Of a DNA stretch of 37,148 bases, positions 14,865 through 31,218 are shown one piece after another. Origin of the DNA: Candidatus Hydrothermarchaeota archaeon (lineage in GTDB: Archaea; CAYFZR01). The stretch's first letter is position 1. Every line of letters begins with the position of its first letter. The notes below the pieces were generated by a model. That model made no database searches and had not been told where the DNA came from. It was given only the letters and a program-made list of their open reading frames with translations. The stretch is taken from positions 1 to 37,148 of the forward strand of contig JBHIEG010000019.1 of NCBI GenBank assembly GCA_046760505.1, given 5' to 3'. The position numbers were made by a program, and so were the translations under genes.

Positions 14865-15899
14865 ATGGCGAGAAAAGATCGATTTATCAATGCATGCTGG
14901 CAAGAACAAGTAGACTGTACGCCAGTATGGATTATGCGCCAGTCAGGAAGATATTTGAAAGAATATCGGGATATACGCAAAAAATACTCATTTATGACTA
15001 TGTGCAAAACGCCGTCATTGGCTACTACCCTCACCCTGCTCCCTGTTTATAAAATCGAGGTTGATGCAGCGATCCTATTTTCCGATATACTCATCCCTCT
15101 TGAGGCAATGGGAGTTGAAATAAGATTTATCGACGGAAAGGGTCCAGTTATACTGAATCCAGTTCGAAAAAGCGAGGATTTAGACTCCTTAAGGATTATT
15201 GATGCCCAACAAGATGTACCCTTTGTAATTGAAACCATAAAGTTAGTTCTGAACAAATTAGATGGAGAAGTGCCTCTAATAGGATTTTCAGGGGCTCCAT
15301 TTACGCTCGCAAGTTATCTGGTGGAAGGCGGTTCGTCTCGCCACTATCTAAAGATAAAAAGTATGATGTACAATGACCCTGTAACCTATGAAACCATGAT
15401 GGATAAAGTAGTGGAGACGATAATATCCTATTTAAACGCCCAGATTAAAGCAGGAGTGCAAGCAATTCAAATTTTTGATTCCTGGATAGGTTGCTTTTCT
15501 CCGCAAGATTATGAGAAGTACGTGATGCCTTACACTAAGAGAGTCATTGAAGGTTTGGAGAGAGATGATGTGCCAGTAATCCATTTTGCAACGGGAAGTG
15601 CCACGCTCCTTGAGTTCATGAAAAAAGCTGGCGGCGAAGTCATAGGCATAGATTGGCGAATAAACATAGATGATGCATGGAAGATTATAGGCTACGACAA
15701 GGCAATCCAAGGAAATCTAGATCCGGCGGTCCTCTTTGCATCTAAGGATGAAGTAGAAGAAAGGGTGAGAGACATATTAATGCGCGTAAACAACAGACCG
15801 GGACATATTTTCAATCTAGGTCATGGAGTCCTTCCTAAAACGCCAGTAGAAAACGTTATCACCATGGTTAGAGCAGTTCATAAGTATAGCGCTAGGTAG
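14865..15899 (+). CDS. hemE: Uroporphyrinogen decarboxylase (bacterial type)
   Basis: PVWIMRQSGRYL, DAAILFSDIL, IGFSGAPFTLASY, QIFDSW, QGNLDP, IFNLGHG. Confidence 0.95.
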   Translation: MARKDRFINACWQEQVDCTPVWIMRQSGRYLKEYRDIRKKYSFMTMCKTPSLATTLTLLPVYKIEVDAAILFSDILIPLEAMGVEIRFIDGKGPVILNPVRKSEDLDSLRIIDAQQDVPFVIETIKLVLNKLDGEVPLIGFSGAPFTLASYLVEGGSSRHYLKIKSMMYNDPVTYETMMDKVVETIISYLNAQIKAGVQAIQIFDSWIGCFSPQDYEKYVMPYTKRVIEGLERDDVPVIHFATGSATLLEFMKKAGGEVIGIDWRINIDDAWKIIGYDKAIQGNLDPAVLFASKDEVEERVRDILMRVNNRPGHIFNLGHGVLPKTPVENVITMVRAVHKYSAR

Positions 15900-15914
15900 C
15901 GATAGATTATATTA

Positions 15915-16871
15915 GTGAGGAAAAAAATGAAAAAGGACAAGAAAAATACGATAGCTGTTCTCTTACTGGGCTTTGGTGCACCAGATTCTCCCCTAGCGAT
16001 AGAGCCCTTCTTGAGAAATGTTTTTTCTCATGCAAAGGTTGAAATTACTGATGAAAAAATCAGAGAAACACATCGAAAATACGAATTAATTGGTGGCAGT
16101 TCTCCTCTTCTTAAAATCACAAGAGAACAAGCCTCATTGCTCGAGAAAAAACTTAATTCTGAGGGTGGAAATTTCAAGGTTTATATAGGCATGCGTTACT
16201 GGCACCCTTTTATTCATGAAACTGTAAAGGAAATCATCAACGACGAAATCACCAATATCATTGCCTTAAGTTTATCTCCTTTTTATTCGAAAATAACGAC
16301 TGGGTCAAACATAAGAGAACTAAAAAGAGTTCTTTCAAAATATGAAAAAGAGATTAAAATCACCTACATAGATAGCTGGTACGACAACCGATCTTATCTT
16401 AATGCTCTATCTGAAAAACTAAGGGAAGGATTATCTCTATTTCCGGAGGATAGGCGCAGTAATGTTCAGGTAATATTCAGTGCTCATAGCCTACCAAAAA
16501 AAGTGATTGAAGAAGGAGATCCATATTTAAGACAACTGGAAACCACTATTAAAGAAATTATTAAGCAAACAGGTCCTATTTCATGGCATCTCTCCTTTCA
16601 AAGTCGAGGCGCTTCCGGAGAATGGCTAGAACCCGAAACCGACGTATTAATCGAAAAACTCGCTGAAAAAAATTGCAGAGAAATTTTATTGGTTCCAATA
16701 AGTTTCATATCTGATAACATAGAAATATTGTACGATATTGATATAGTTTTTCAAAAATTGGCAGAATCTAGGGGAATTACACTTTGTAGAACCTCGTGCT
16801 TCAACTCTTCACCAGAATTCATCGATGTTCTCCATAATGTGGTGATTGAGCATATTGATAGAAATAGGTGA
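15915..16871 (+). CDS. hemH: Ferrochelatase (HemH/CpfC family)
   Basis: AVLLLGFGAP, IGGSSPL, GMRYWHP, FSAHSLP, FQSR, WLEP, PISFISDNIEILYDID. Confidence 0.94.
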   Translation: MRKKMKKDKKNTIAVLLLGFGAPDSPLAIEPFLRNVFSHAKVEITDEKIRETHRKYELIGGSSPLLKITREQASLLEKKLNSEGGNFKVYIGMRYWHPFIHETVKEIINDEITNIIALSLSPFYSKITTGSNIRELKRVLSKYEKEIKITYIDSWYDNRSYLNALSEKLREGLSLFPEDRRSNVQVIFSAHSLPKKVIEEGDPYLRQLETTIKEIIKQTGPISWHLSFQSRGASGEWLEPETDVLIEKLAEKNCREILLVPISFISDNIEILYDIDIVFQKLAESRGITLCRTSCFNSSPEFIDVLHNVVIEHIDRNR

Positions 16872-16880
16872 TACGTTCAG

Positions 16881-18308
16881 ATGAAAAATATGAGGAAGGT
16901 AATCATTATCGGCGCGGGTATCACTGGCTTATCAACCGCGTATTATCTCCAAGAAAAAGCTGGAGATGAAATTGACTTTATTATTCTAGAAAAAAGAGAT
17001 CGACCTGGGGGCGTAATAGTAACAGAAAGGATTGATGGTTTTATAATAGAAGGAGGTCCTGATACATTTGTAAGCGAAAAACCTTGGACAGTAAAGCTCA
17101 GCAAAGAATTAGGCATCGAAGATCGACTTCTTAACAGTAACGAAGATATTAGAAAGACTTTTATTTTTTCCGATGGAAAGCTCAGAGAATTGCCCGAAGG
17201 AATCATGATGATGGTTCCGATAAAAGTAATCCCATTCCTTAAAAGTGATCTGATATCATGGCCAGGCAAAATTCGCGCCTGCTTAGATCTCTTTTTGCCA
17301 AGAAAAAACTATGAAGATGAAAGCCTTGAAAGTTTTGTCAAAAGACGTCTTGGTAAAGAAATCCTCGAAAAAATAGCTGAACCTCTTATAGCAGGAATTC
17401 ACGCATGCGAACCTGAGAATATGAGTCTTAAGAGTACATTTCCAAGATTTATAGAATATGAGAAGAACTATGGAAGTCTTATAAGAGGAATGCTTGCTGC
17501 AAAGAAAGAAATGGAAACTTGGAAGAATAACAAATCAGAGAAAAAATTGACATTCTTCATGTCCTTTAAAGGCGGAATGCAAGAACTCGTCGATGCTCTG
17601 GTCTCTGCATTAGCCAAAAATATCTTTTTGAATAAAAAGGTGACCCGGGTCGATAAAATAGAAACTTCTGAGACAATCAAATACCTTGTGCATGTCGAAG
17701 GAAACTCTCCAATTTTAGCAGACGCTGTTGTTTTTACGACGCCCTCTTACATAACTGCTAAAATTCTGGGCGAACTTGATAAATCTCTGGCAAATAAACT
17801 CAACGAAATAACATGGGTTTCTTCTGCGACAATATCTCTGGGGTACAAGAAATCTGATATAAACCATCCGCTCAAAGGATTTGGATTTGTTGTACCCAGA
17901 GTTGAGAATCGAAAAATCAAGGCAGTGAGCTGGAATACTTCAAAATTCAATTACAGAGCACCAGAAGGACATGTCCTGCTTAGATGTTTTATTGGAGGTC
18001 CTAGAAAAGAGGATTACGTTGATCTTGATGATGAATCTCTGATAAAACTTGCTAGAGAAGAGTTAAAAGAAATTATGGGCATAGATGCTGAACCCGTTAT
18101 AACCAGAGTATACCGATGGAAAAAAGAAATGCCCCAGTACAAAGTTGGTCATAGCGAAAGGGTCAAGGCAATCGAGGAGATGTCAAGCAAGCATCCAGGA
18201 CTATACATTACGGGAAGTTCATATTATGGAGTTGGAATAGGTGATTGCATTCGATGCGGAGAATTAACCGCTGAAAAAATTATAGAACAGTTTAAAAAAT
18301 CCCTGTAA
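16881..18308 (+). CDS. hemY: Flavin-dependent (co/proto)porphyrinogen oxidase, HemY/CgoX family
   Basis: IIGAGITGL, EGGPD, EPLIAGIHA, GFGFVVP, MPQYKVGH, GVGIGDCI. Confidence 0.94.
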   Translation: MKNMRKVIIIGAGITGLSTAYYLQEKAGDEIDFIILEKRDRPGGVIVTERIDGFIIEGGPDTFVSEKPWTVKLSKELGIEDRLLNSNEDIRKTFIFSDGKLRELPEGIMMMVPIKVIPFLKSDLISWPGKIRACLDLFLPRKNYEDESLESFVKRRLGKEILEKIAEPLIAGIHACEPENMSLKSTFPRFIEYEKNYGSLIRGMLAAKKEMETWKNNKSEKKLTFFMSFKGGMQELVDALVSALAKNIFLNKKVTRVDKIETSETIKYLVHVEGNSPILADAVVFTTPSYITAKILGELDKSLANKLNEITWVSSATISLGYKKSDINHPLKGFGFVVPRVENRKIKAVSWNTSKFNYRAPEGHVLLRCFIGGPRKEDYVDLDDESLIKLAREELKEIMGIDAEPVITRVYRWKKEMPQYKVGHSERVKAIEEMSSKHPGLYITGSSYYGVGIGDCIRCGELTAEKIIEQFKKSL

Positions 18309-23247: not shown

Positions 23248-25068
23248 ATGGCAAGACCAGACATTTTGAATGGGGAAACTGGAGAGAAGGTATTTTTGCT
23301 TGGAAATGAGGCAATAGCAAGAGGCGCTATTGAGGCTGGCGTAAAAGTTGTGGCTTCATATCCCGGGACTCCGTCTTCTGAAATTCTCGAATCAATAGCA
23401 CGCGTAGCCAAGGAACTCAATATCCACGCTGAGTGGAGTGTGAATGAAAAAGCTGCCTTAGAAATTGCTGCCGGCGCCTCATATTCTGGAGTAAGGGCGA
23501 TGGCATCAATGAAACACGTTGGAGTTAACGTTGCATTGGATGCCCTAGTTACACTCGCCTATACAGGCGTTAGAGGTGGACTGGTTATCGTTTCGGCCGA
23601 TGATCCTTCTGCTCATAGCTCACAAAACGAGCAGGACAATAGACTCATTGCAAGATTTGCCAAAATATTTTGCCTCGAGCCTTATGACCCACAGAGCGCT
23701 AAGGATTACACTAAAAAAGCCTTTGAAATTTCAGAGAGATTCGAAATACCTGTTATGCTCAGAACAACCACAAGGGTAAGTCATGCGAGAGGAGACGTAG
23801 AGTTCGGTGAAGTTATCCACCAAAAAAAGGCAAATTTTAAGAAAGATCCTAAGAGATTTGTTTGCGTGCCAGCACATTCCAGACCGCTTCATGCAAATCT
23901 TAACAAAAAACTTAAGGACATGGAGAAATATTCAGAGGAAAGCGAGCTCAATTACTCAGAAATCAACGATAAACTTGGTGTTATCTCGTCTGGTGTTTCT
24001 AGGAACTATGTGAGAGAAGCTCTCCATCTACTAGGATTAAAGGCATCTGTATTCGAAATAGGTATAACCCACCCCCTTCCAAGGAAAAGGCTTATAGATT
24101 TTCTGAACAATGTTGAAAGAGTTTTGATTGTCGAAGAACTCGAACCTTACATCGAAGAATATGTAAAATCCCTTGGTACCGGAATTAAGATAGATGGTAA
24201 ATCTCTATTGCCAAGAGAATTCGAATTAAGCGTGGATATAGTCAAAAAAGCCATATCCGGTTTAGTAGGCATAAGCCATAAGGAGAGTAAAATAGATGTA
24301 ATTGATATCCCCTCAAGACCTCCTGTAATGTGTGCAGGATGCCCGCACAGGGCTGTTTTCTACGCTCTAAAGAAAATAACAAAGAAGAAGATTTATTCCG
24401 GTGATATAGGGTGCTATACCTTGGGTGTATCAGAGCCTCTAAAGACTATAGACACCTGTCTATGCATGGGCGCTGGAATAAGTCTCGGAGCAGGATTGTA
24501 TCACGCTGGAGTAGAAGATAAAATTGTAGCAATAATCGGAGATTCAACATTTTTACATGCAGGAATGACAGGTTTGCTAAACGCGGTATACAACAATGCA
24601 AACATTACCATCGTCATATTGGATAATATGGGCTCTGCCATGACCGGGCACCAGCCCCACCCGGCGGTTGGAGTTACCGCAACCGGAGAAAAAACTTTTA
24701 AGGTAGATTTCGAGCAGATTGCAAAGGCGCTTGGTGCAGGTTTTGTTGCAAAAATAAAACCATTTGATCTCGAAGATTCTATAGAAACCCTTAGAAAGGC
24801 ATTAGATTTTAATGGCGTTTCAGTGGTCATCGCAGAAGAGCCCTGTGCATTGGTAGCGAAAAAGCTTAACCTGTGGAAGAGCCCTTATCGTGTTGATAGA
24901 GATAAATGCGATGGATATCTCTGCCATGAATGTAGAGCATGTGTATTTTTGATCGACTGTCCAGCGATAAATTGGGAAAATGGGAAGGCAAAAGTAATAA
25001 GGGAACTTTGTAGTGGATGCGGCTTGTGCTTCAAGATATGTCCAAACAATGCGTTTGTGGTGGATTAA
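23248..25068 (+). CDS. iorA: Indolepyruvate:ferredoxin oxidoreductase alpha subunit
   Basis: LGNEAIARGA, YPGTPSSE, MKHVGVNVA, SSQNEQD, CAGCPHR, GDIGCY, GDSTFLHAG, C-terminal ferredoxin. Confidence 0.96.
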   Translation: MARPDILNGETGEKVFLLGNEAIARGAIEAGVKVVASYPGTPSSEILESIARVAKELNIHAEWSVNEKAALEIAAGASYSGVRAMASMKHVGVNVALDALVTLAYTGVRGGLVIVSADDPSAHSSQNEQDNRLIARFAKIFCLEPYDPQSAKDYTKKAFEISERFEIPVMLRTTTRVSHARGDVEFGEVIHQKKANFKKDPKRFVCVPAHSRPLHANLNKKLKDMEKYSEESELNYSEINDKLGVISSGVSRNYVREALHLLGLKASVFEIGITHPLPRKRLIDFLNNVERVLIVEELEPYIEEYVKSLGTGIKIDGKSLLPREFELSVDIVKKAISGLVGISHKESKIDVIDIPSRPPVMCAGCPHRAVFYALKKITKKKIYSGDIGCYTLGVSEPLKTIDTCLCMGAGISLGAGLYHAGVEDKIVAIIGDSTFLHAGMTGLLNAVYNNANITIVILDNMGSAMTGHQPHPAVGVTATGEKTFKVDFEQIAKALGAGFVAKIKPFDLEDSIETLRKALDFNGVSVVIAEEPCALVAKKLNLWKSPYRVDRDKCDGYLCHECRACVFLIDCPAINWENGKAKVIRELCSGCGLCFKICPNNAFVVD

Positions 25069-25069
25069 A

Positions 25070-25669
25070 ATGAAAACAGGCTCGAAGACAGATATATTAA
25101 TAGCAGGCGTAGGTGGACAGGGAATACTTCTTACCGCAAACATGATAGGTCGCACAGCGGTAAAGATGGGTTTCAAAGTTAGAGGCGCTGAAACCCATGG
25201 CATGGCCCAAAGGGGGGGGAGCGTGGTTTCCCATATCAGAATCGGAAATATCGCAAGTCCGCTCATTCCTCAAGGGGAATGTGACTTTATGCTTGGTTTC
25301 GAGCCTGTCGAAGCGCTTAGAAACGTCTATTTTTTGAATAAAAACGCTAAGGCAATAGTTAATAGAGAAATGATCCCGCCTGCATCACTAAGAGACCCGT
25401 GGAAGTATCCAAGGTTAGAGGATGTGATTAAAAATCTCTCCGAATACTGCGAGTTAATTCTCCTAGATGCATCGTCTATTGCTTCAAAAACAGGAAATCC
25501 ACTCTTCATAAACATGGTCATGCTTGGAGCACTTTCCTTATTTCTGGAGTCTATCATCCCTGAAGAGAAACTCAGGGAAACGATAGAAGAAATAATACCA
25601 AAAAAGACGGTTGATGCTAACCTAAAGGCCTTTGACCTCGGAAGAGAAGAGGTGAGAAAAAAACTCTGA
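25070..25669 (+). CDS. iorB: Indolepyruvate:ferredoxin oxidoreductase beta subunit
   Basis: AGVGGQG, ETHGMAQRGGSV, N-x-V-MLGA, NLKAF. ATG 25070 directly follows the iorA stop. Confidence 0.95.
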   Translation: MKTGSKTDILIAGVGGQGILLTANMIGRTAVKMGFKVRGAETHGMAQRGGSVVSHIRIGNIASPLIPQGECDFMLGFEPVEALRNVYFLNKNAKAIVNREMIPPASLRDPWKYPRLEDVIKNLSEYCELILLDASSIASKTGNPLFINMVMLGALSLFLESIIPEEKLRETIEEIIPKKTVDANLKAFDLGREEVRKKL

Positions 25670-25678
25670 GGTATCTTT

Positions 25679-26773
25679 ATGGTGACAGCGTTTGTAGGGC
25701 TTCCCTGTCAGATTCAAGCGTTGAAAAAGGCTAATATCATGTTAAATAAGTTCAAGGATACTTTTTCAATTGGACTCTTCTGCAGGGAAAACTGGTGCTA
25801 CTCTTGCATGCGCGCGTTAGTGGAAGGAGACCATGGCATAGACCTCAGTTCTGTTAAAAAGTTCGAGATAAAAGGAAACAGTATGCTAATAAGCTATAAC
25901 AGAGAGGTAATTGAGATACCACTATCCGAATCAAGGCCATATGTAAGATTATGCTGCCAAGTTTGCTTAGATTTTTCTTCTGAACTTTCAGACGTTTCCG
26001 TAGGATCATTAGGCTCGCCTAACGGCTGGTCAACCCTTATTCTACGAACAGACTATGGAATTAAAATAGTGGAGGGCGCAAAAAAAGAGGGTTACATCGA
26101 AGTAAGATCAATAAAAGATTCCGGAATCAGATCAATACGTAATATATCCCGAGAAAAAAAGGAAGAAAGTCTAAAAGAGGCTAAAGTGATGGAAAAGAGT
26201 GGAATAAATGTTCCTCACATCCTTACGAAGGATGATATAGATCTGGAAGATTTTAAATACTATTCTAAAGATAAAAATTTTTCTGATTTGGAATTTAATG
26301 TCGTAGATAATGGCTTCTGCGTTTCATGCGGTACATGCGCTGCTATTTGCCCATATGACGTCCTCGAATTGCCCAATGAAAGACCTCGTTTATTAAAAGC
26401 ATGTCCAAGTGGATGCAACCTTTGTTATCTCGCTTGTCCAAGAACCTCTTTCCAGATACCTGCAATAGAAGAGAAAATTGAATTTGCCTCTAGAATCAGG
26501 GATGAAGACCTTGGTTATTATGCAAAAATCCTAGCAGCAAGAACCAAGGTTAGTTCCATTAAAGGACAGGACGGCGGCGTAGTGACCTCTCTCTTAATGT
26601 ATGCTTTAGACTCAGGGCTGATAGAAAGTGCAGTTACCGTAACTCATGGAGACATGCCTTGGAAACCAAAGGCTACAATCGTAAAAAATAAGATAGAACT
26701 GCTCAAAACTTCTGGAAGTATTTACTCGGTGTCCACTACAATGCAGAGTTTAAGAGACTCTTTTATTAAATAA
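25679..26773 (+). CDS. FrhB/FdhB-family (F420-interacting) flavo-iron-sulfur protein with circularly permuted domain order
   Basis: Starts with C-domain motifs (VGLPCQ, IGLFC, CxxCxDF, DVSVGSLGSP-x-GWS), then a 2x[4Fe-4S] ferredoxin (from aa 214), then the N-domain (QDGGVVT at aa 297, GSIY). Confidence 0.88.
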   Translation: MVTAFVGLPCQIQALKKANIMLNKFKDTFSIGLFCRENWCYSCMRALVEGDHGIDLSSVKKFEIKGNSMLISYNREVIEIPLSESRPYVRLCCQVCLDFSSELSDVSVGSLGSPNGWSTLILRTDYGIKIVEGAKKEGYIEVRSIKDSGIRSIRNISREKKEESLKEAKVMEKSGINVPHILTKDDIDLEDFKYYSKDKNFSDLEFNVVDNGFCVSCGTCAAICPYDVLELPNERPRLLKACPSGCNLCYLACPRTSFQIPAIEEKIEFASRIRDEDLGYYAKILAARTKVSSIKGQDGGVVTSLLMYALDSGLIESAVTVTHGDMPWKPKATIVKNKIELLKTSGSIYSVSTTMQSLRDSFIK

Positions 26774-26975
26774 GTAGATAGATTGTGCTTTTTGGTTAAA
26801 TCTCATTTCAAGAGGGTTATGTTAACTATCTTTCAACACATAAATTCTAAAATAAATATAAATTTAATGTAAAATTAATAGAGAAAACAGCAAGATATTT
26901 ATGAATTTAATCACAAACTATTTTTAAGAGATTGTTAATACAATCTCAAAAAAAACAAAATTTAAAAAGGAGGTT

Positions 26976-27305
26976 GTGGCCTTGGGAGAAGAATGGTGGA
27001 AAATTCCAAGTCCAAGTTTCACATTCCTAGTCGCTTTATTAGTTGGCTTACTCGGAGGAAAATTATTTACCAGCCTTACGGCAGCAACAATCAGCATTCC
27101 TCTGAGCGTAAGTACAAATATTCATGGTCTCGTATTTAAGACGGTTATACTTTTTGTATACGGTGCTCTTTTCGTTTTCCTATTTGGAGGTCATGAAAAA
27201 GAGGAAATATACTTGTTTATAAGAAACTTAAAGCCAACGATCCTTCACGGAGCAATATTAGGTATCGTTCCAATAATCGTGCCTGTCATCATTGGTCTGC
27301 TTTAA
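26976..27305 (+). CDS. Small hypothetical membrane protein (about 3 TM)
   Basis: RBS AGGAGGT before GTG; hydrophobic segments; 27 bp upstream of the Rieske gene. Confidence 0.75.
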   Translation: MALGEEWWKIPSPSFTFLVALLVGLLGGKLFTSLTAATISIPLSVSTNIHGLVFKTVILFVYGALFVFLFGGHEKEEIYLFIRNLKPTILHGAILGIVPIIVPVIIGLL

Positions 27306-27332
27306 CGCCTACAAAATTCAGGGAGGAATTAC

Positions 27333-27818
27333 ATGGCTAGAAAAGGGATAACCCGAAGATACTTCCTGTATTTACTTGGAGGCGGTGCCATTGCATCGTA
27401 TGCAATGGCTTTTACGGGTGCTTTAATAAAATTTGCTTGGTCACCAAAGTTACGAGCAACGGCATCCCAAAGTGAAGTTGAAATTGCAAAATCTGGAGAA
27501 ATTCCGGTAGGTGAAGCAAAGCTTTTCAAGTTCCAGGGTAAGCCCTCTATACTCATCCATCTAAGCGATGGCTATTATGCATTTGGAGCAGTTTGCACGC
27601 ATCTTGGCTGTGTTGCCAAATGGAAAGATCTGGAAAACAACGAGGTCATATACTGTCCGTGCCACATAGGAAAAATAGACCCAAGAACTGGAGAGGTTCT
27701 TGCAGGTCCAATACCAAGCCCATATCCTAAAATAATTATCGAAGAAAAGGAAGGGGCTATATTCGCCAAGGGATGGAAAGATCCCGAGTACGTTAAATCG
27801 CTCCCCATGTATGCATAA
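27333..27818 (+). CDS. Rieske [2Fe-2S] protein with Tat signal/anchor (QcrA/PetC-like)
   Basis: TRRYFL twin-arginine motif, TM helix, CTHLGC and CPCH boxes, GP-x-P-x-P; RBS GGAGG. Confidence 0.93.
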   Translation: MARKGITRRYFLYLLGGGAIASYAMAFTGALIKFAWSPKLRATASQSEVEIAKSGEIPVGEAKLFKFQGKPSILIHLSDGYYAFGAVCTHLGCVAKWKDLENNEVIYCPCHIGKIDPRTGEVLAGPIPSPYPKIIIEEKEGAIFAKGWKDPEYVKSLPMYA

Positions 27819-28089: not shown

Positions 28090-28362
28090 TTAACTCGTTC
28101 TTGTTTTGTTAAATAGTTCCTCCCCATCTTCTGTTAATCTATAAAACTTAATTCTCTTAAAATCTGATTCAACCTCTTCTATCAGTCCTTCTCTCTTTAA
28201 AAGTTCTATTTCATACTTTACGGTACCCCATTGCATGCCTATTCTGTTAGAAATCTGGTTTATATTTAATAGGCCATAATCTGAGTTTTTCAAGGCCCTC
28301 AAAATATTGATTCTTGTCGACCCACCTCCGCTTATAAGAAGTGTCAATTTTGACTTGGTCAA
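28090..28362 (-). CDS. Winged-helix (ArsR-like) transcriptional regulator, paralog 1
   Basis: GG-x-TR-x-x-IL-x-AL, NQIS...WGTVKYEIELLKREGLIEEV, YRLTEDG. Confidence 0.88.
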   Translation of the reverse strand: MTKSKLTLLISGGGSTRINILRALKNSDYGLLNINQISNRIGMQWGTVKYEIELLKREGLIEEVESDFKRIKFYRLTEDGEELFNKTRTS

Positions 28363-28808: not shown

Positions 28809-29084
28809 TCAGGAAGTTGAGGTCTTTTTCAGCAATTGCTTACAGTTTTCTGTTAATCGATAGAACTTAGTTCTCTTATGATCTGTTTTCACTTCTTCTA
28901 TCAGTCCTTCCCTCTTTAAAAGTTCTATTTCATACTTTACAGTGCCCCACTCCATGCCTATTCTGTTAGAAATCTGGTTTGTATTCAGTAGACCGAATTC
29001 CGAATTGTTTAGTGCCTTAAGTATCTTCAATCGGGTCTCTCCACCTCTACTCAGAAGGACTATTTTTGATCTGATGTGATCCAA
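28809..29084 (-). CDS. Winged-helix (ArsR-like) transcriptional regulator, paralog 2
   Basis: SRGGETR, identical WGTVKYEIELLKREGLIEEV core. Confidence 0.88.
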   Translation of the reverse strand: MDHIRSKIVLLSRGGETRLKILKALNNSEFGLLNTNQISNRIGMEWGTVKYEIELLKREGLIEEVKTDHKRTKFYRLTENCKQLLKKTSTS

Positions 29085-30628: not shown

Positions 30629-30715
30629 TACAAATTCCCACGGATGTAAAATTTTTTGATTGATATGAGTCTCAAGTAAACTAAATTATTTGACAAGACG
30701 AATCACTGATTTAGG

Positions 30716-30988
30716 TTAATCTGATATTCTTTTGGATAATTCCTTCCCTATATCTGTCAACGTGTAAAATTTGGTTCGGTGGTGTGATTCAACCTCTTCT
30801 ATCAGTCCTTCTCTCTTTAAAAGTTCTATTTCATACTTTACGGTACCCCACTCCATGCCTATCTTGTTAGAAATCTGGTTTGTATTCAGTAGACCGAATT
30901 CCGAATTGTTTAGTGCCTTAAGTATTTTGGCTCGGGTCTCTCCACCTCTGCTCACGAGAAGAATTACCTTGGGTCTTATCGGATCCAT
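30716..30988 (-). CDS. Winged-helix (ArsR-like) transcriptional regulator, paralog 3
   Basis: SRGGETR, identical WGTVKYEIELLKREGLIEEV core, YTLTDIG. Confidence 0.88.
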   Translation of the reverse strand: MDPIRPKVILLVSRGGETRAKILKALNNSEFGLLNTNQISNKIGMEWGTVKYEIELLKREGLIEEVESHHRTKFYTLTDIGKELSKRISD

Positions 30989-31218
30989 AACATTCCCCCA
31001 ATTGCGATTGTTGCGAAAATTTTACAACAATTCGTTATGATTTCAACATATTTTATCGATTAATTTCTATTTATAGGTTCATTTTATAAATGGTGAGTTG
31101 TAAACGTTTTTTTATCAATTACAAAACTTTTTTATATTATTTTCAGAAAAATTTCCCAAAACCCGGTTATACAAAAACTAACTGACAAAGAATATGCACA
31201 AATTTTGCGTGATCAATC

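What the first reader, a model, noticed from the sequence alone, without database searches (positions are those of the whole stretch)
25679..26773. Circularly permuted FrhB/FpoF-family protein
Seen: the order is C-domain (VGLPCQ at aa 6-11, IGLFC, DVSVGS), then ferredoxin (aa 214 on), then N-domain (QDGGVVT aa 297, GSIY). Established: the canonical order is ferredoxin, N-domain, C-domain, with the GSKY segment running via one helix into VGxPCQ. Here the chain ends at GSIYSVSTTMQSLRDSFIK and begins at MVTAFVGLPCQ, so it is cut at exactly that junction with all parts retained. Extra cysteines occur (ENWCYSC, LCCQVC). Inference: a functional permutant, probably from tandem duplication and trimming, perhaps adapted to dock on IOR. 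I cannot confirm whether this architecture is already described.
Basis: partly seen in the sequence, partly recalled or inferred. Interest (0 to 1): 0.8.

Follow-up and report, generated by a model that had tools for sequence, protein, structure and literature searches.

The report
Permuted F420-type flavoprotein behind IOR genes
The gene encodes an intact, rearranged (circularly permuted) relative of the protein that archaea use to pass electrons to coenzyme F420; the rearrangement is old, widespread and already noted in print, and only its position behind an amino-acid-degrading enzyme (IOR) is new.

Summary
ORF 25679-26773 (364 aa) reads FrhB_FdhB_C, then 2x[4Fe-4S], then FrhB_FdhB_N. It matches every solved FrhB-type chain in two swapped pieces.

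It is not a local oddity or an assembly error. 133 of the 267 proteins I stored share this order, with conserved termini. They come from Methanobacteria, Hydrothermarchaeota and others.

The Methanothermobacter member is the putative 'subunit 4 of F420-dependent glutamate synthase'. Its swapped alignment was noted in a figure legend (Mills 2013, eLife). This scan also met the family earlier, in a nap operon (e1-3083219).

Partners vary:
- 80 genome loci: 53 in glutamate synthase operons, 19 directly before porGDAB, 3 before mtd.
- About 22 permuted metagenome loci: 11 porGDAB, 6 mtd.
- None sits by IOR.

Here the gene lies 9 bp behind iorAB, in an F420-making, McrA-less archaeon. The only congener keeps iorAB but retains just a ~19-codon remnant of this gene.

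Best reading (0.5): an F420-reducing outlet for electrons from IOR, like the proven F420-reducing CODH and Fwd, but accessory. F420 use and docking are both inferred. I class it as a new member of a known kind, of moderate interest.

The parts
23248..25068 (+). iorA, indolepyruvate:ferredoxin oxidoreductase alpha subunit (606 aa) with a C-terminal 2x[4Fe-4S] ferredoxin domain
   Evidence: TIGR03336 IOR_alpha scores 810.5 bits against a cut-off of 650.9. Pfam finds POR_N, TPP_enzyme_C and Fer4 at aa 556-603.
25070..25669 (+). iorB, IOR beta subunit (199 aa from the ATG at 25070; the listed ORF starts earlier, at a GTG at 25013)
   Evidence: TIGR03334 IOR_beta scores 209.2 bits against a cut-off of 205.8. 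Pfam POR scores 7.9e-42. The choice of start is my inference from the end of iorA.
25669..25678 (+). 9-bp spacer between the iorB stop codon and the permuted gene's ATG. A GAGG(T) run overlaps the stop codon, so the two genes are probably translated as one unit.
   Evidence: Sequence read. The ribosome-site reading is inference.
25679..26773 (+). Circularly permuted FrhB-family iron-sulfur flavoprotein (364 aa, P0001), order C-domain / 2x[4Fe-4S] / N-domain
25688..26119 (+). FrhB_FdhB_C module (aa 4-147). It carries the four ligands of the core [4Fe-4S] cluster (C10, C35, C93, C96) and the DVSVGSLG loop that lies near F420 in FrhB.
26120..26299 (+). Long helix (aa 147-173), equivalent to the C-terminal surface helix of FrhB, followed by a ~25-residue linker that joins the old C-terminus to the ferredoxin domain
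   Evidence: DSSP on the model. Query 4-175 aligns to 8riu_B 179-351 and query 200 onwards to 8riu_B residue 8 onwards.
26300..26446 (+). 2x[4Fe-4S] ferredoxin module (aa 208-256) with eight Cys: 214, 217, 220, 224, 242, 246, 249, 253
   Evidence: Fer4 Pfam models. Cluster-1 Cys are present in 127 of 127 family members and cluster-2 Cys in 93-113 of 127.
26531..26752 (+). FrhB_FdhB_N module (aa 285-358) with QDGGVVT (the helix N-terminus that binds the FAD pyrophosphate in FrhB) and GSIY (the Lys-Tyr loop of FrhB, Lys replaced by Ile)
   Evidence: Pfam 7.5e-20. D298, G299, G300, T303, G346 and Y349 are invariant in A1. The FrhB features are from Mills 2013.
26789..26793 (+). T5 run 16 bp after the stop codon, at the start of a 200-bp A+T-rich spacer. 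This is the probable end of the iorA-iorB-permuted-FrhB transcript.
   Evidence: Sequence read. The terminator reading is inference only.

Best explanation
The gene encodes a complete, working FrhB-type module. It holds two ferredoxin-type [4Fe-4S] clusters, the core [4Fe-4S] cluster, FAD and a pocket for coenzyme F420. The chain starts at the C-domain and ends after the N-domain.

It is co-expressed with indolepyruvate:ferredoxin oxidoreductase (IOR). Electrons released when IOR oxidises aryl-pyruvates (made from imported amino acids) leave through the ferredoxin domain of IorA. They reach the permuted protein's own clusters either directly or through a free ferredoxin. FAD collects them in pairs and passes them to F420 as a hydride.

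The resulting F420H2 can feed Mtd and Mer of the organism's H4MPT-type Wood-Ljungdahl pathway.

Shown here: the gene's integrity, its family, the cofactor ligands, the operon position, and the organism's F420 genes. Inferred: FAD and F420 binding, the direction of electron flow, and any physical contact with IOR. The module is accessory to IOR, not essential.
For: Operon:
- There are 9 bp between the iorB stop and the ATG, with a GAGG run. A T-run and a 200-bp spacer follow the gene.
- iorA and iorB both pass NCBI's equivalog cut-offs.

Module integrity:
- All 12 cluster Cys are present.
- 53 of 58 columns that are at least 90% conserved in 127 family members are kept.
- The model has pLDDT 90.7 and pTM 0.90.
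- The one in-gene variant between runs is a third-position A>G in an Arg codon.

Precedent:
- The best solved relative (3.1e-50) is the zeta subunit that makes CO dehydrogenase reduce F420. 8rja_E does the same for Fwd (passages of PMC11493965).
- FrhB paralogues in PFOR gene clusters were proposed to do this for pyruvate oxidation (passages of PMC9012536).

Family habit:
- 19 of 80 genome loci and 11 of about 22 permuted metagenome loci have the permuted gene directly before porG-D-A-B, roughly 7-59 bp away by HSP coordinates.
- PorA of L011 passes PorA_Arch at 607 bits against 550.
- So a second kind of 2-oxoacid oxidoreductase is a regular neighbour.

F420 link:
- The closest relatives (53-55% identity) sit 8-35 bp before mtd.
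- 7 of 7 sampled genomes holding the permuted protein have CofH over the cut-off, against 10 of 34 genomes without it. These genomes are kin and not independent.
- The own genome has CofH, Mer, Mtd and CdhC.
- It has no McrA, no FrhA over the cut-off and no NuoD-type complex.

Context: livKHMGF and two paaK-like ligases with an ACT gene lie upstream, which fits aromatic amino-acid turnover.
Against: - IOR stands beside none of the 80 genome loci and none of the roughly 22 permuted metagenome loci. The pairing is seen in this one genus only.
- The same-genus genome G001 is syntenic on both sides and its IorA is 82% identical. It retains only the first ~19 codons of this gene (12 identical) followed by a stop, in a 727-bp spacer instead of 1119 bp. 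IOR therefore works without the gene.
- No permuted member has been shown biochemically to use F420. Kaster 2011 says the glutamate synthase case 'remains to be proven'.
- The Lys of FrhB's Lys-Tyr loop is Ile here. The lysine-rich turn near F420 (IGKGK in FrhB) has a single Lys here.
- P0001 departs from the family at 5 of 58 conserved columns (median 1), ranking 116th of 127. All five changes are mild except R171M.
- Packing of the N-domain on the C-domain was not checked by superposition, because the structure searches aligned only residues 1-266.
- Some family members stand alone (L007).
Confidence: 0.5

Rival explanations
1. It is a free-standing soluble ferredoxin:F420 oxidoreductase with no special tie to IOR. 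It balances the ferredoxin and F420 pools for the whole cell, and its place behind iorAB is an accident of gene order.
For: - Partners in the family change freely: glutamate synthase, POR, Mtd, Nap.
- Some members have no obvious partner (L007).
- The closest relatives sit by mtd, not by an oxidoreductase.
- The sister species lost the gene without losing IOR.
- Soluble FpoF of Methanosarcina mazei is reported to act in this way (recalled, not seen in any call).
Against: - The 9-bp coupling to iorB.
- A remnant at the same spot in G001 shows the arrangement was stable in the genus ancestor.
- The tight, repeated pairing with porGDAB in other lineages suggests dedicated partners.
Confidence: 0.22
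2. It uses an acceptor or donor other than F420, such as a pyridine nucleotide or a small organic substrate. The FrhB-fold enzymes HCAR and BciB do this.
For: - The PF04432 control search hits Synechococcus and Bacteroides.
- F420 use is unproven for any permuted member.
- The Lys of the Lys-Tyr loop and most lysines of the turn near F420 are missing here.
Against: - Sequence similarity to proven F420 enzymes is far higher (8riu_B 3e-50, Fsr 1e-49, FrhB 7e-46) than to HCAR (3e-4).
- All 7 sampled holders of the permuted protein have CofH.
- Near relatives are neighbours of mtd.
Confidence: 0.1
3. It runs in reverse. F420H2 would feed IOR for reductive carboxylation of aryl-acetyl-CoA to aryl-pyruvate, which is amino-acid synthesis from aryl acids.
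For: - Two paaK-like aryl-acid CoA ligases lie nearby.
- IOR serves this anabolic route in some methanogens (recalled).
- In the glutamate synthase operons the family is thought to take electrons from F420H2.
Against: - F420H2, at about -340 mV (passage), is too weak a reductant for 2-oxoacid synthesis near -500 mV (recalled value).
- The same objection is made in print for PFOR.
Confidence: 0.06
4. It is a relic on its way out and no longer functional in this genome either.
For: - The sister species has already lost it.
- P0001 is among the more deviant family members, with 5 of 58 conserved columns changed against a median of 1.
Against: - The frame is open over 364 codons.
- Every cofactor ligand is kept.
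- The fold prediction is confident.
- It has a start codon and a ribosome site.
- The only in-gene variant among four runs is synonymous.
Confidence: 0.05

Closest known systems
MTBMA_c06440 / MTH193-type protein of Methanobacteria ('subunit 4 of F420-dependent glutamate synthase'; FGltS(II)-alpha of Susanti & Mukhopadhyay 2012)
   Same: - Same permuted order C / Fer4 / N over the full length: 37-41% identity and 98% coverage (P0100, P0117).
- Same termini.
- Same cofactor ligands.
- The swap was noted for the M. marburgensis protein in Mills 2013, Fig. 9 legend.
   Different: - That protein lies inside the split glutamate synthase operon in 53 of 80 genome loci and is thought to oxidise F420H2.
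- The window's protein lies behind iorAB and probably reduces F420.
- In the tree it belongs to the other main branch, with the POR- and Mtd-linked forms.
Permuted FrhB genes directly before porGDAB (Hydrothermarchaeota, Pyrohabitans and others) and before mtd (closest relatives)
   Same: - Same clade: a 9-row group with SH-aLRT 96. P0001 is sister to the Mtd-linked P0009 at 98.
- 41-55% identity.
- The neighbour is a 2-oxoacid:ferredoxin oxidoreductase of the same superfamily as IOR.
   Different: - There the gene comes first and the partner is a four-subunit pyruvate oxidoreductase or Mtd.
- Here it comes last and the partner is two-subunit IOR.
- I found no paper on these loci. Chadwick 2022 describes FrhB6 with PFOR in ANME-1 without giving its domain order.
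[quoted passage not shown] Ethanoperedens
   Same: - Best solved sequence relatives, at 3.1e-50 and 6.7e-46.
- Same cofactor set: two ferredoxin clusters, a core cluster and FAD.
- Same proposed job: diverting electrons of a ferredoxin-type enzyme to F420.
   Different: - Those have the canonical Fer4-N-C order and a C-terminal dimerising tail.
- Their docking and activity are proven. Here both are inferred.
FrhB, FpoF/FqoF, Fsr-N and FdhB
   Same: - Same fold and ligands.
   Different: - It falls below every NCBIfam cut-off: frhB 184 against 331.5, FpoF 108 against 475.
- No FrhA over the cut-off and no NuoD-type partner was found in the genome.
- The domain order differs from all of them.

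Membership tests
FrhB/FdhB superfamily (Pfam PF04422 + PF04432) | Both Pfam domains score over their gathering cut-offs | tested here: met
   FrhB_FdhB_C scores 130.5 bits (cut-off 23.3). FrhB_FdhB_N scores 71.3 bits (cut-off 22).
FrhB/FdhB superfamily (Pfam PF04422 + PF04432) | Four cysteines ligate the core [4Fe-4S] cluster (Cys104/134/192/195 of M. marburgensis FrhB; Mills 2013) | tested here: met
   C10, C35, C93 and C96 align to them. They are Cys in 126-127 of 127 permuted members.
FrhB/FdhB superfamily (Pfam PF04422 + PF04432) | FAD site: a conserved helix N-terminus at the pyrophosphate and the Lys-Tyr loop | tested here: inconclusive
   QDGGVVT and Y349 are kept, and these columns are invariant in A1. 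The Lys is Ile here (GSIY), as it is Asn in 8riu_B. No cofactor was modelled.
FrhB/FdhB superfamily (Pfam PF04422 + PF04432) | F420 pocket: the small-residue loop (S209-V210 of FrhB) and the lysine-rich turn (IGKGK) | tested here: inconclusive
   The loop reads G109-S110-L111-G112, and the family has Val at 111 in 92% of members. The turn has one Lys here and is variable in the family.
FrhB/FdhB superfamily (Pfam PF04422 + PF04432) | Domain order N-domain before C-domain | tested here: not met
   The C-domain is at aa 4-147 and the N-domain at aa 285-358. The protein is a circular permutant of the fold. This is a difference in chain order, not in parts.
Permuted subfamily (MTH193 / FGltS(II)-alpha type) | Order C / Fer4 / N with the chain starting just before VGxPCQ and ending 10-22 residues after GSxY | tested here: met
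   - 11 of 11 sampled homologues have the order.
- 133 of 267 stored proteins have it.
- Counts of 57, 16 and 18 of 127 have 6, 7 or 2 residues before the conserved Gly.
- 120 of 127 have 10-22 residues after the Tyr.
Permuted subfamily (MTH193 / FGltS(II)-alpha type) | Encoded within the split glutamate synthase operon | tested here: not met
   The window has iorAB upstream and a membrane protein plus a Rieske protein downstream. This lowers 'glutamate synthase subunit' as a label. It does not lower membership of the permuted clade.
FpoF/FqoF (F420H2 dehydrogenase input subunit) | NCBIfam NF040616 over its cut-off, and an Fpo/Fqo (Nuo-like) complex in the genome | tested here: not met
   The score is 107.8 bits against 475. 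No Complex1_49kDa match was found in the genome, which is estimated 100% complete.
FrhB of F420-reducing hydrogenase | TIGR03289 over its cut-off, and an FrhA partner | tested here: not met
   The score is 183.9 bits against 331.5. The best FrhA-like match scores 189 bits against 392.5 and lies on another contig.
F420-reducing add-on subunits of ferredoxin-dependent oxidoreductases (8RIU zeta, 8RJA) | Stable docking on the partner enzyme and partner-dependent F420 reduction | not testable with these tools
   Only gene adjacency and sequence kinship are available.

The most novel reading that the evidence does not exclude
IOR in this archaeon is an F420-reducing aryl-pyruvate oxidoreductase. 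The permuted FrhB module docks on the ferredoxin domain of IorA, so that aromatic amino-acid oxidation yields F420H2 directly for the H4MPT Wood-Ljungdahl pathway.

Together with the porGDAB-linked relatives, this would define a class of F420-coupled 2-oxoacid oxidoreductases built with the permuted module.

A side point also follows. All three cyclic orders of the same three modules exist in nature: Fer4-N-C, N-C-Fer4 (FdhB) and C-Fer4-N.
Probability: 0.3. Interest if true: 0.6.

Novelty: new member of a known kind. Interest (0 to 1): 0.35.

Why it matters
Two enzymes long held to be ferredoxin-dependent, CO dehydrogenase and formylmethanofuran dehydrogenase, were recently shown to reduce F420 when they carry an FrhB-like subunit.

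The loci gathered here suggest the same trick is used for 2-oxoacid oxidoreductases. Pyruvate oxidoreductase carries it in Hydrothermarchaeota, and IOR carries it in this rare lineage. In these cases the module is the permuted form.

It would also give protein engineers a natural, well-populated example of a circularly permuted redox module that plugs into several different partners.

The permutation itself is not new.

Tried and rejected
**Complex prediction.** Complex prediction of IorA with the permuted protein returned 'no answer' (scores 0.01 and 0.00, mark 0.32). This is neither support nor evidence against binding.

**Expression.** No RNA holder was listed among the sequencing runs, so expression could not be examined.

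**First genome search.** The search for related loci with the single protein in genome contigs found nothing. The alignment query succeeded.

**Assembly error: rejected.**
- Contigs of four runs bridge the whole gene and both junctions. The runs come from one study and may be the source of the DNA.
- 133 homologues share the order.

**Split or mis-started gene: rejected.**
- iorB ends 9 bp upstream.
- No N-domain lies upstream and no C-domain lies downstream.
- The termini are conserved in the family.

**'The permutation arose to fit IOR': rejected**.

**Single or multiple origin: left open.**
- FastTree on 187 rows put 48 of 51 permuted rows in one clade with support 0.53, and three (P0123, P0149, P0221) apart.
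- IQ-TREE quick on 63 chosen rows made all 22 permuted rows one side of a branch, with SH-aLRT of only 29.
- For the 63-row tree I kept 22 of 49 permuted and 41 of 131 canonical well-filled rows. 11 of the canonical rows were chosen because they neighboured the outliers, 2 were the genome's own paralogues, and the rest were drawn at random.

**Structure searches.** They are sequence-order bound and aligned only model residues 1-266. The 3D position of the N-domain was not compared with FrhB.

**Literature.**
- 'FrhB' + 'circular permutation': 0 papers.
- 'FrhB' + 'permut': 11 papers. By title they are ecology or statistics papers. I saw the listing only.
- 'indolepyruvate' + 'FrhB': 4 papers, 3 of them listed. 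I saw the listing only.
- Figures and supplements of the cited papers were not seen. Fig. 6 of Susanti & Mukhopadhyay and Fig. 9 of Mills may draw the order explicitly.
Full report
**1. What is there**

ORF 25679-26773 (+) encodes 364 residues. Pfam places FrhB_FdhB_C at residues 4-147 (6.2e-38), 4Fe-4S ferredoxin models at 208-256, and FrhB_FdhB_N at 285-358 (7.5e-20).

No NCBIfam model is passed:
- PRK09325: 218 bits against 269.
- frhB: 184 against 331.5.
- FpoF: 108 against 475.
- The first two of these match in two pieces.

Against the sequences of solved structures the protein always aligns in two swapped stretches. The best hit is 8riu_B (3.1e-50), where query 200-352 matches chain 8-161 and query 4-175 matches chain 179-351. 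Fsr (7np8), FrhB (6qii_B, 3zfs_C, 9r51_B) and 8rja_E behave the same way.

The chain is therefore cut in the short connector between the N- and C-domains. The old C-terminal helix is joined through about 25 residues to the ferredoxin domain, and nothing is missing. The two 'extra' cysteines are C40 and C92, which are private to this protein or nearly so.

**2. It is a family, not an accident**

The word-index search gave 1368 proteins at E <= 1e-3 among 3437 candidates. Nearly all of the best 120 cover 98-100% of the query at 350-380 residues, down to 37% identity. Three are truncated.

- Eleven of eleven sampled homologues have the C-domain before the N-domain.
- In the exhaustive search of 50%-identity representatives (3072 hits at E <= 1e-3, 273 at <= 1e-30), 16 of the best 150 clusters are permuted.
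- The termini are conserved. The commonest lead before the conserved Gly of VGxPCQ is 6 residues (57 of 127, this protein included), and 120 of 127 end 10-22 residues after the Tyr of GSxY.
- The four ligands of the core cluster and the four of the first ferredoxin cluster are Cys in 126-127 of 127. The second ferredoxin cluster is lost in a minority (Cys in 93-113 of 127) but is complete here.

The AlphaFold2 model built on 36 sequences has mean pLDDT 90.7 and pTM 0.90.
- These aligners respect chain order, so the position of the N-domain was not compared.

Contigs of four DNA runs bridge 24800-27100 with 0-2 differences. The runs come from one study and may be the source of this DNA.

**3. 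It is already in print, in passing**

- The legend of Fig. 9 in Mills et al. [quoted passage not shown]
- Kaster et al. 2011 (PMC3087415; passages) call it subunit 4 of an F420-dependent glutamate synthase that 'remains to be proven'.
- Susanti & Mukhopadhyay 2012 (PMC3448663; passages) name it FGltS(II)-alpha, 'an FdhB homolog' that 'departs significantly' in primary sequence.
- None of the passages I read uses the word permutation, and 'FrhB' with 'circular permutation' finds no paper.
- An earlier report of this scan (e1-3083219) described the same permuted family in an archaeal nap operon. I saw that context myself in L083, which has NapD directly upstream and a multihaem cytochrome downstream.

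**4. Partners**

Of 80 loci from species genomes, scored by tblastn with checked neighbour proteins:
- 53 lie inside the split glutamate synthase operon of Methanobacteria (GATase, GXGXG, permuted gene, FMN/Fer4 subunit, often an ammonium transporter).
- 19 lie directly before porG-porD-porA-porB (Hydrothermarchaeota, Pyrohabitans and unnamed archaea). PorA of L011 passes PorA_Arch.
- 3 lie directly before mtd. These include the two closest relatives, at 53% identity.
- 5 are other: three are cut by contig ends, L007 has no evident partner, and L083 is in the nap context.

Of 80 metagenome loci, about 22 are permuted:
- 20 show a full-length match and 2 are truncated.
- 11 are followed by porGDAB.
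- 6 are followed by mtd, four of them within 20 bp.
- 5 are other or cut.
- Some of these duplicate the genome loci.

True IOR was found beside none of them.

In a 63-row tree the window's protein is sister to the Mtd-linked P0009 (SH-aLRT 98). It lies in a 9-row clade with the POR-linked forms (96), separate from the glutamate synthase branch.

**5. This locus and this organism**

- iorA and iorB pass NCBI's IOR equivalog cut-offs.
- The permuted gene starts 9 bp after the iorB stop, behind a GAGG run. It is followed by a T-run and a 200-bp A+T-rich spacer.
- Upstream lie a Liv-type amino-acid ABC transporter, two paaK-like ligases and an ACT protein.
- The genome (2.17 Mb, 142 contigs, estimated complete, 5.7% contamination) has CofH with a CofG-like neighbour, Mer, Mtd and CdhC.
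- It has no McrA, no FrhA over the cut-off and no NuoD-type subunit.
- It is therefore an F420-making, non-methanogenic archaeon with an H4MPT-type Wood-Ljungdahl pathway.
- It has two further FrhB paralogues, both of canonical order. One of them lies between a multihaem cytochrome and mtd.
- The tool's phylum-level set held only this genome and one congener.

The congener G001 is syntenic on both sides, and its IorA is 82% identical. It has only the two canonical paralogues. Directly after its iorB stop, the first ~19 codons of the permuted gene are still recognisable (12 identical). A stop follows, and then unrelated sequence in a 727-bp spacer instead of 1119 bp. The arrangement therefore predates the two species, and one of them has discarded the gene.

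**6. Mechanism**

The best-supported reading is that the protein is a self-contained module of Fe-S clusters, FAD and an F420 site, and that it receives the electrons IOR releases and hands them to F420.

This rests on:
- the operon coupling;
- the full set of cofactor ligands;
- the kinship with the proven F420-reducing add-on subunits of CO dehydrogenase and Fwd;
- the repeated pairing of the same clade with another 2-oxoacid oxidoreductase;
- the mtd neighbourhood of its nearest relatives;
- the restriction of the permuted protein to CofH-bearing genomes, 7 of 7 holders against 10 of 34 others (the genomes are kin).

The oxidative direction is inferred from redox potentials. F420 lies near -340 mV (passage), and 2-oxoacid couples lie near -500 mV (recalled).

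Several things are not shown: FAD or F420 binding, contact with IOR, and expression.

Against the reading:
- The IOR pairing is unique to this genus, and the congener has dispensed with the gene.
- No permuted member has been characterised biochemically.
- The Lys of the Lys-Tyr loop and most lysines of the turn near F420 are absent here.
- The protein deviates at 5 of 58 conserved columns against a median of 1.

The main rival is a free ferredoxin:F420 oxidoreductase with no dedicated partner. Lesser rivals are another substrate, reverse operation, and a gene in decay.

**7. Verdict**

The 'new architecture' is an old, populous family that has been noticed before, both in the literature and in this scan. 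The IOR context is new, and it adds one more candidate to the growing set of F420-coupled 'ferredoxin' enzymes. I class it as a new member of a known kind, with interest 0.35.

Noticed in passing
window 14865-18308 (+): A hemE (URO-D), hemH (ferrochelatase) and hemY-like (Amino_oxidase/protoporphyrinogen oxidase family) cluster sits in an archaeal genome; MCM and other archaeal genes share the window. From recall, archaea are usually described as making haem by the sirohaem (Ahb) route. A bacterial-type late haem pathway here may be a transfer, and it fits the multihaem cytochromes of this genome.
   Followed up: no
G000 and G001 (whole genomes): The phylum-level search set contained only the window's genome and one congener, so the window comes from a very sparsely sampled archaeal lineage. 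The runs that hold it are labelled hydrothermal vent metagenome.
   Followed up: partly
L002 288-2871 (G000 contig C21): A canonical Fer4-N-C FrhB paralogue (1012-2001) lies between a cytochrome with about ten CxxCH motifs (288-986) and mtd (2035-2871). In the closest relatives of the window's protein, the slot before mtd is filled by the permuted form instead.
   Followed up: partly
model m398a6b1027da versus 8rvu_E / 7bkb_E: The C-domain plus ferredoxin domain (residues 1-266) superposes in chain order on FdhB (N/C/Fer4). The ferredoxin plus N-domain aligns in chain order with Fer4/N/C proteins by sequence. So all three cyclic rotations of the same three modules occur in nature. FdhB and FpoF-type proteins may themselves be circular permutants of one another rather than independent ferredoxin additions.
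   Followed up: partly
L064 3111-6630: A canonical-order FrhB paralogue (two pieces, 26-28% identity) lies about 1.3 kb upstream of the permuted gene, which is itself followed by porGDA. Both forms occur in one locus.
   Followed up: no
P0122 (487 aa); L092 (G025:C104, open frame 544 aa): These are longer permuted forms with about 30-180 extra residues. They may be fusions or mis-called starts.
   Followed up: no
window 28090-28362 (-) and 28809-29084 (-): Two paralogous ~90-aa proteins have nearly identical C-terminal halves and no Pfam match. The surrounding DNA is repeated within the window and in G001: blastn gives multiple hits to about 28090-28350, 28890-29080 and 30710-31150.
   Followed up: no
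window 26976-27818 (+): Downstream of the operon lie a 109-aa hydrophobic protein without a Pfam match and a 161-aa Rieske protein with a twin-arginine-like N-terminus. The Rieske protein scores below the cut-off for b6f/bc1 Rieske models. The pair is syntenic in G001.
   Followed up: no
L004 5785-7089: The database entry P0009 (434 aa, named 'hydrogenase') starts about 70 codons upstream of the conserved family start. This is probably a mis-called start.
   Followed up: no
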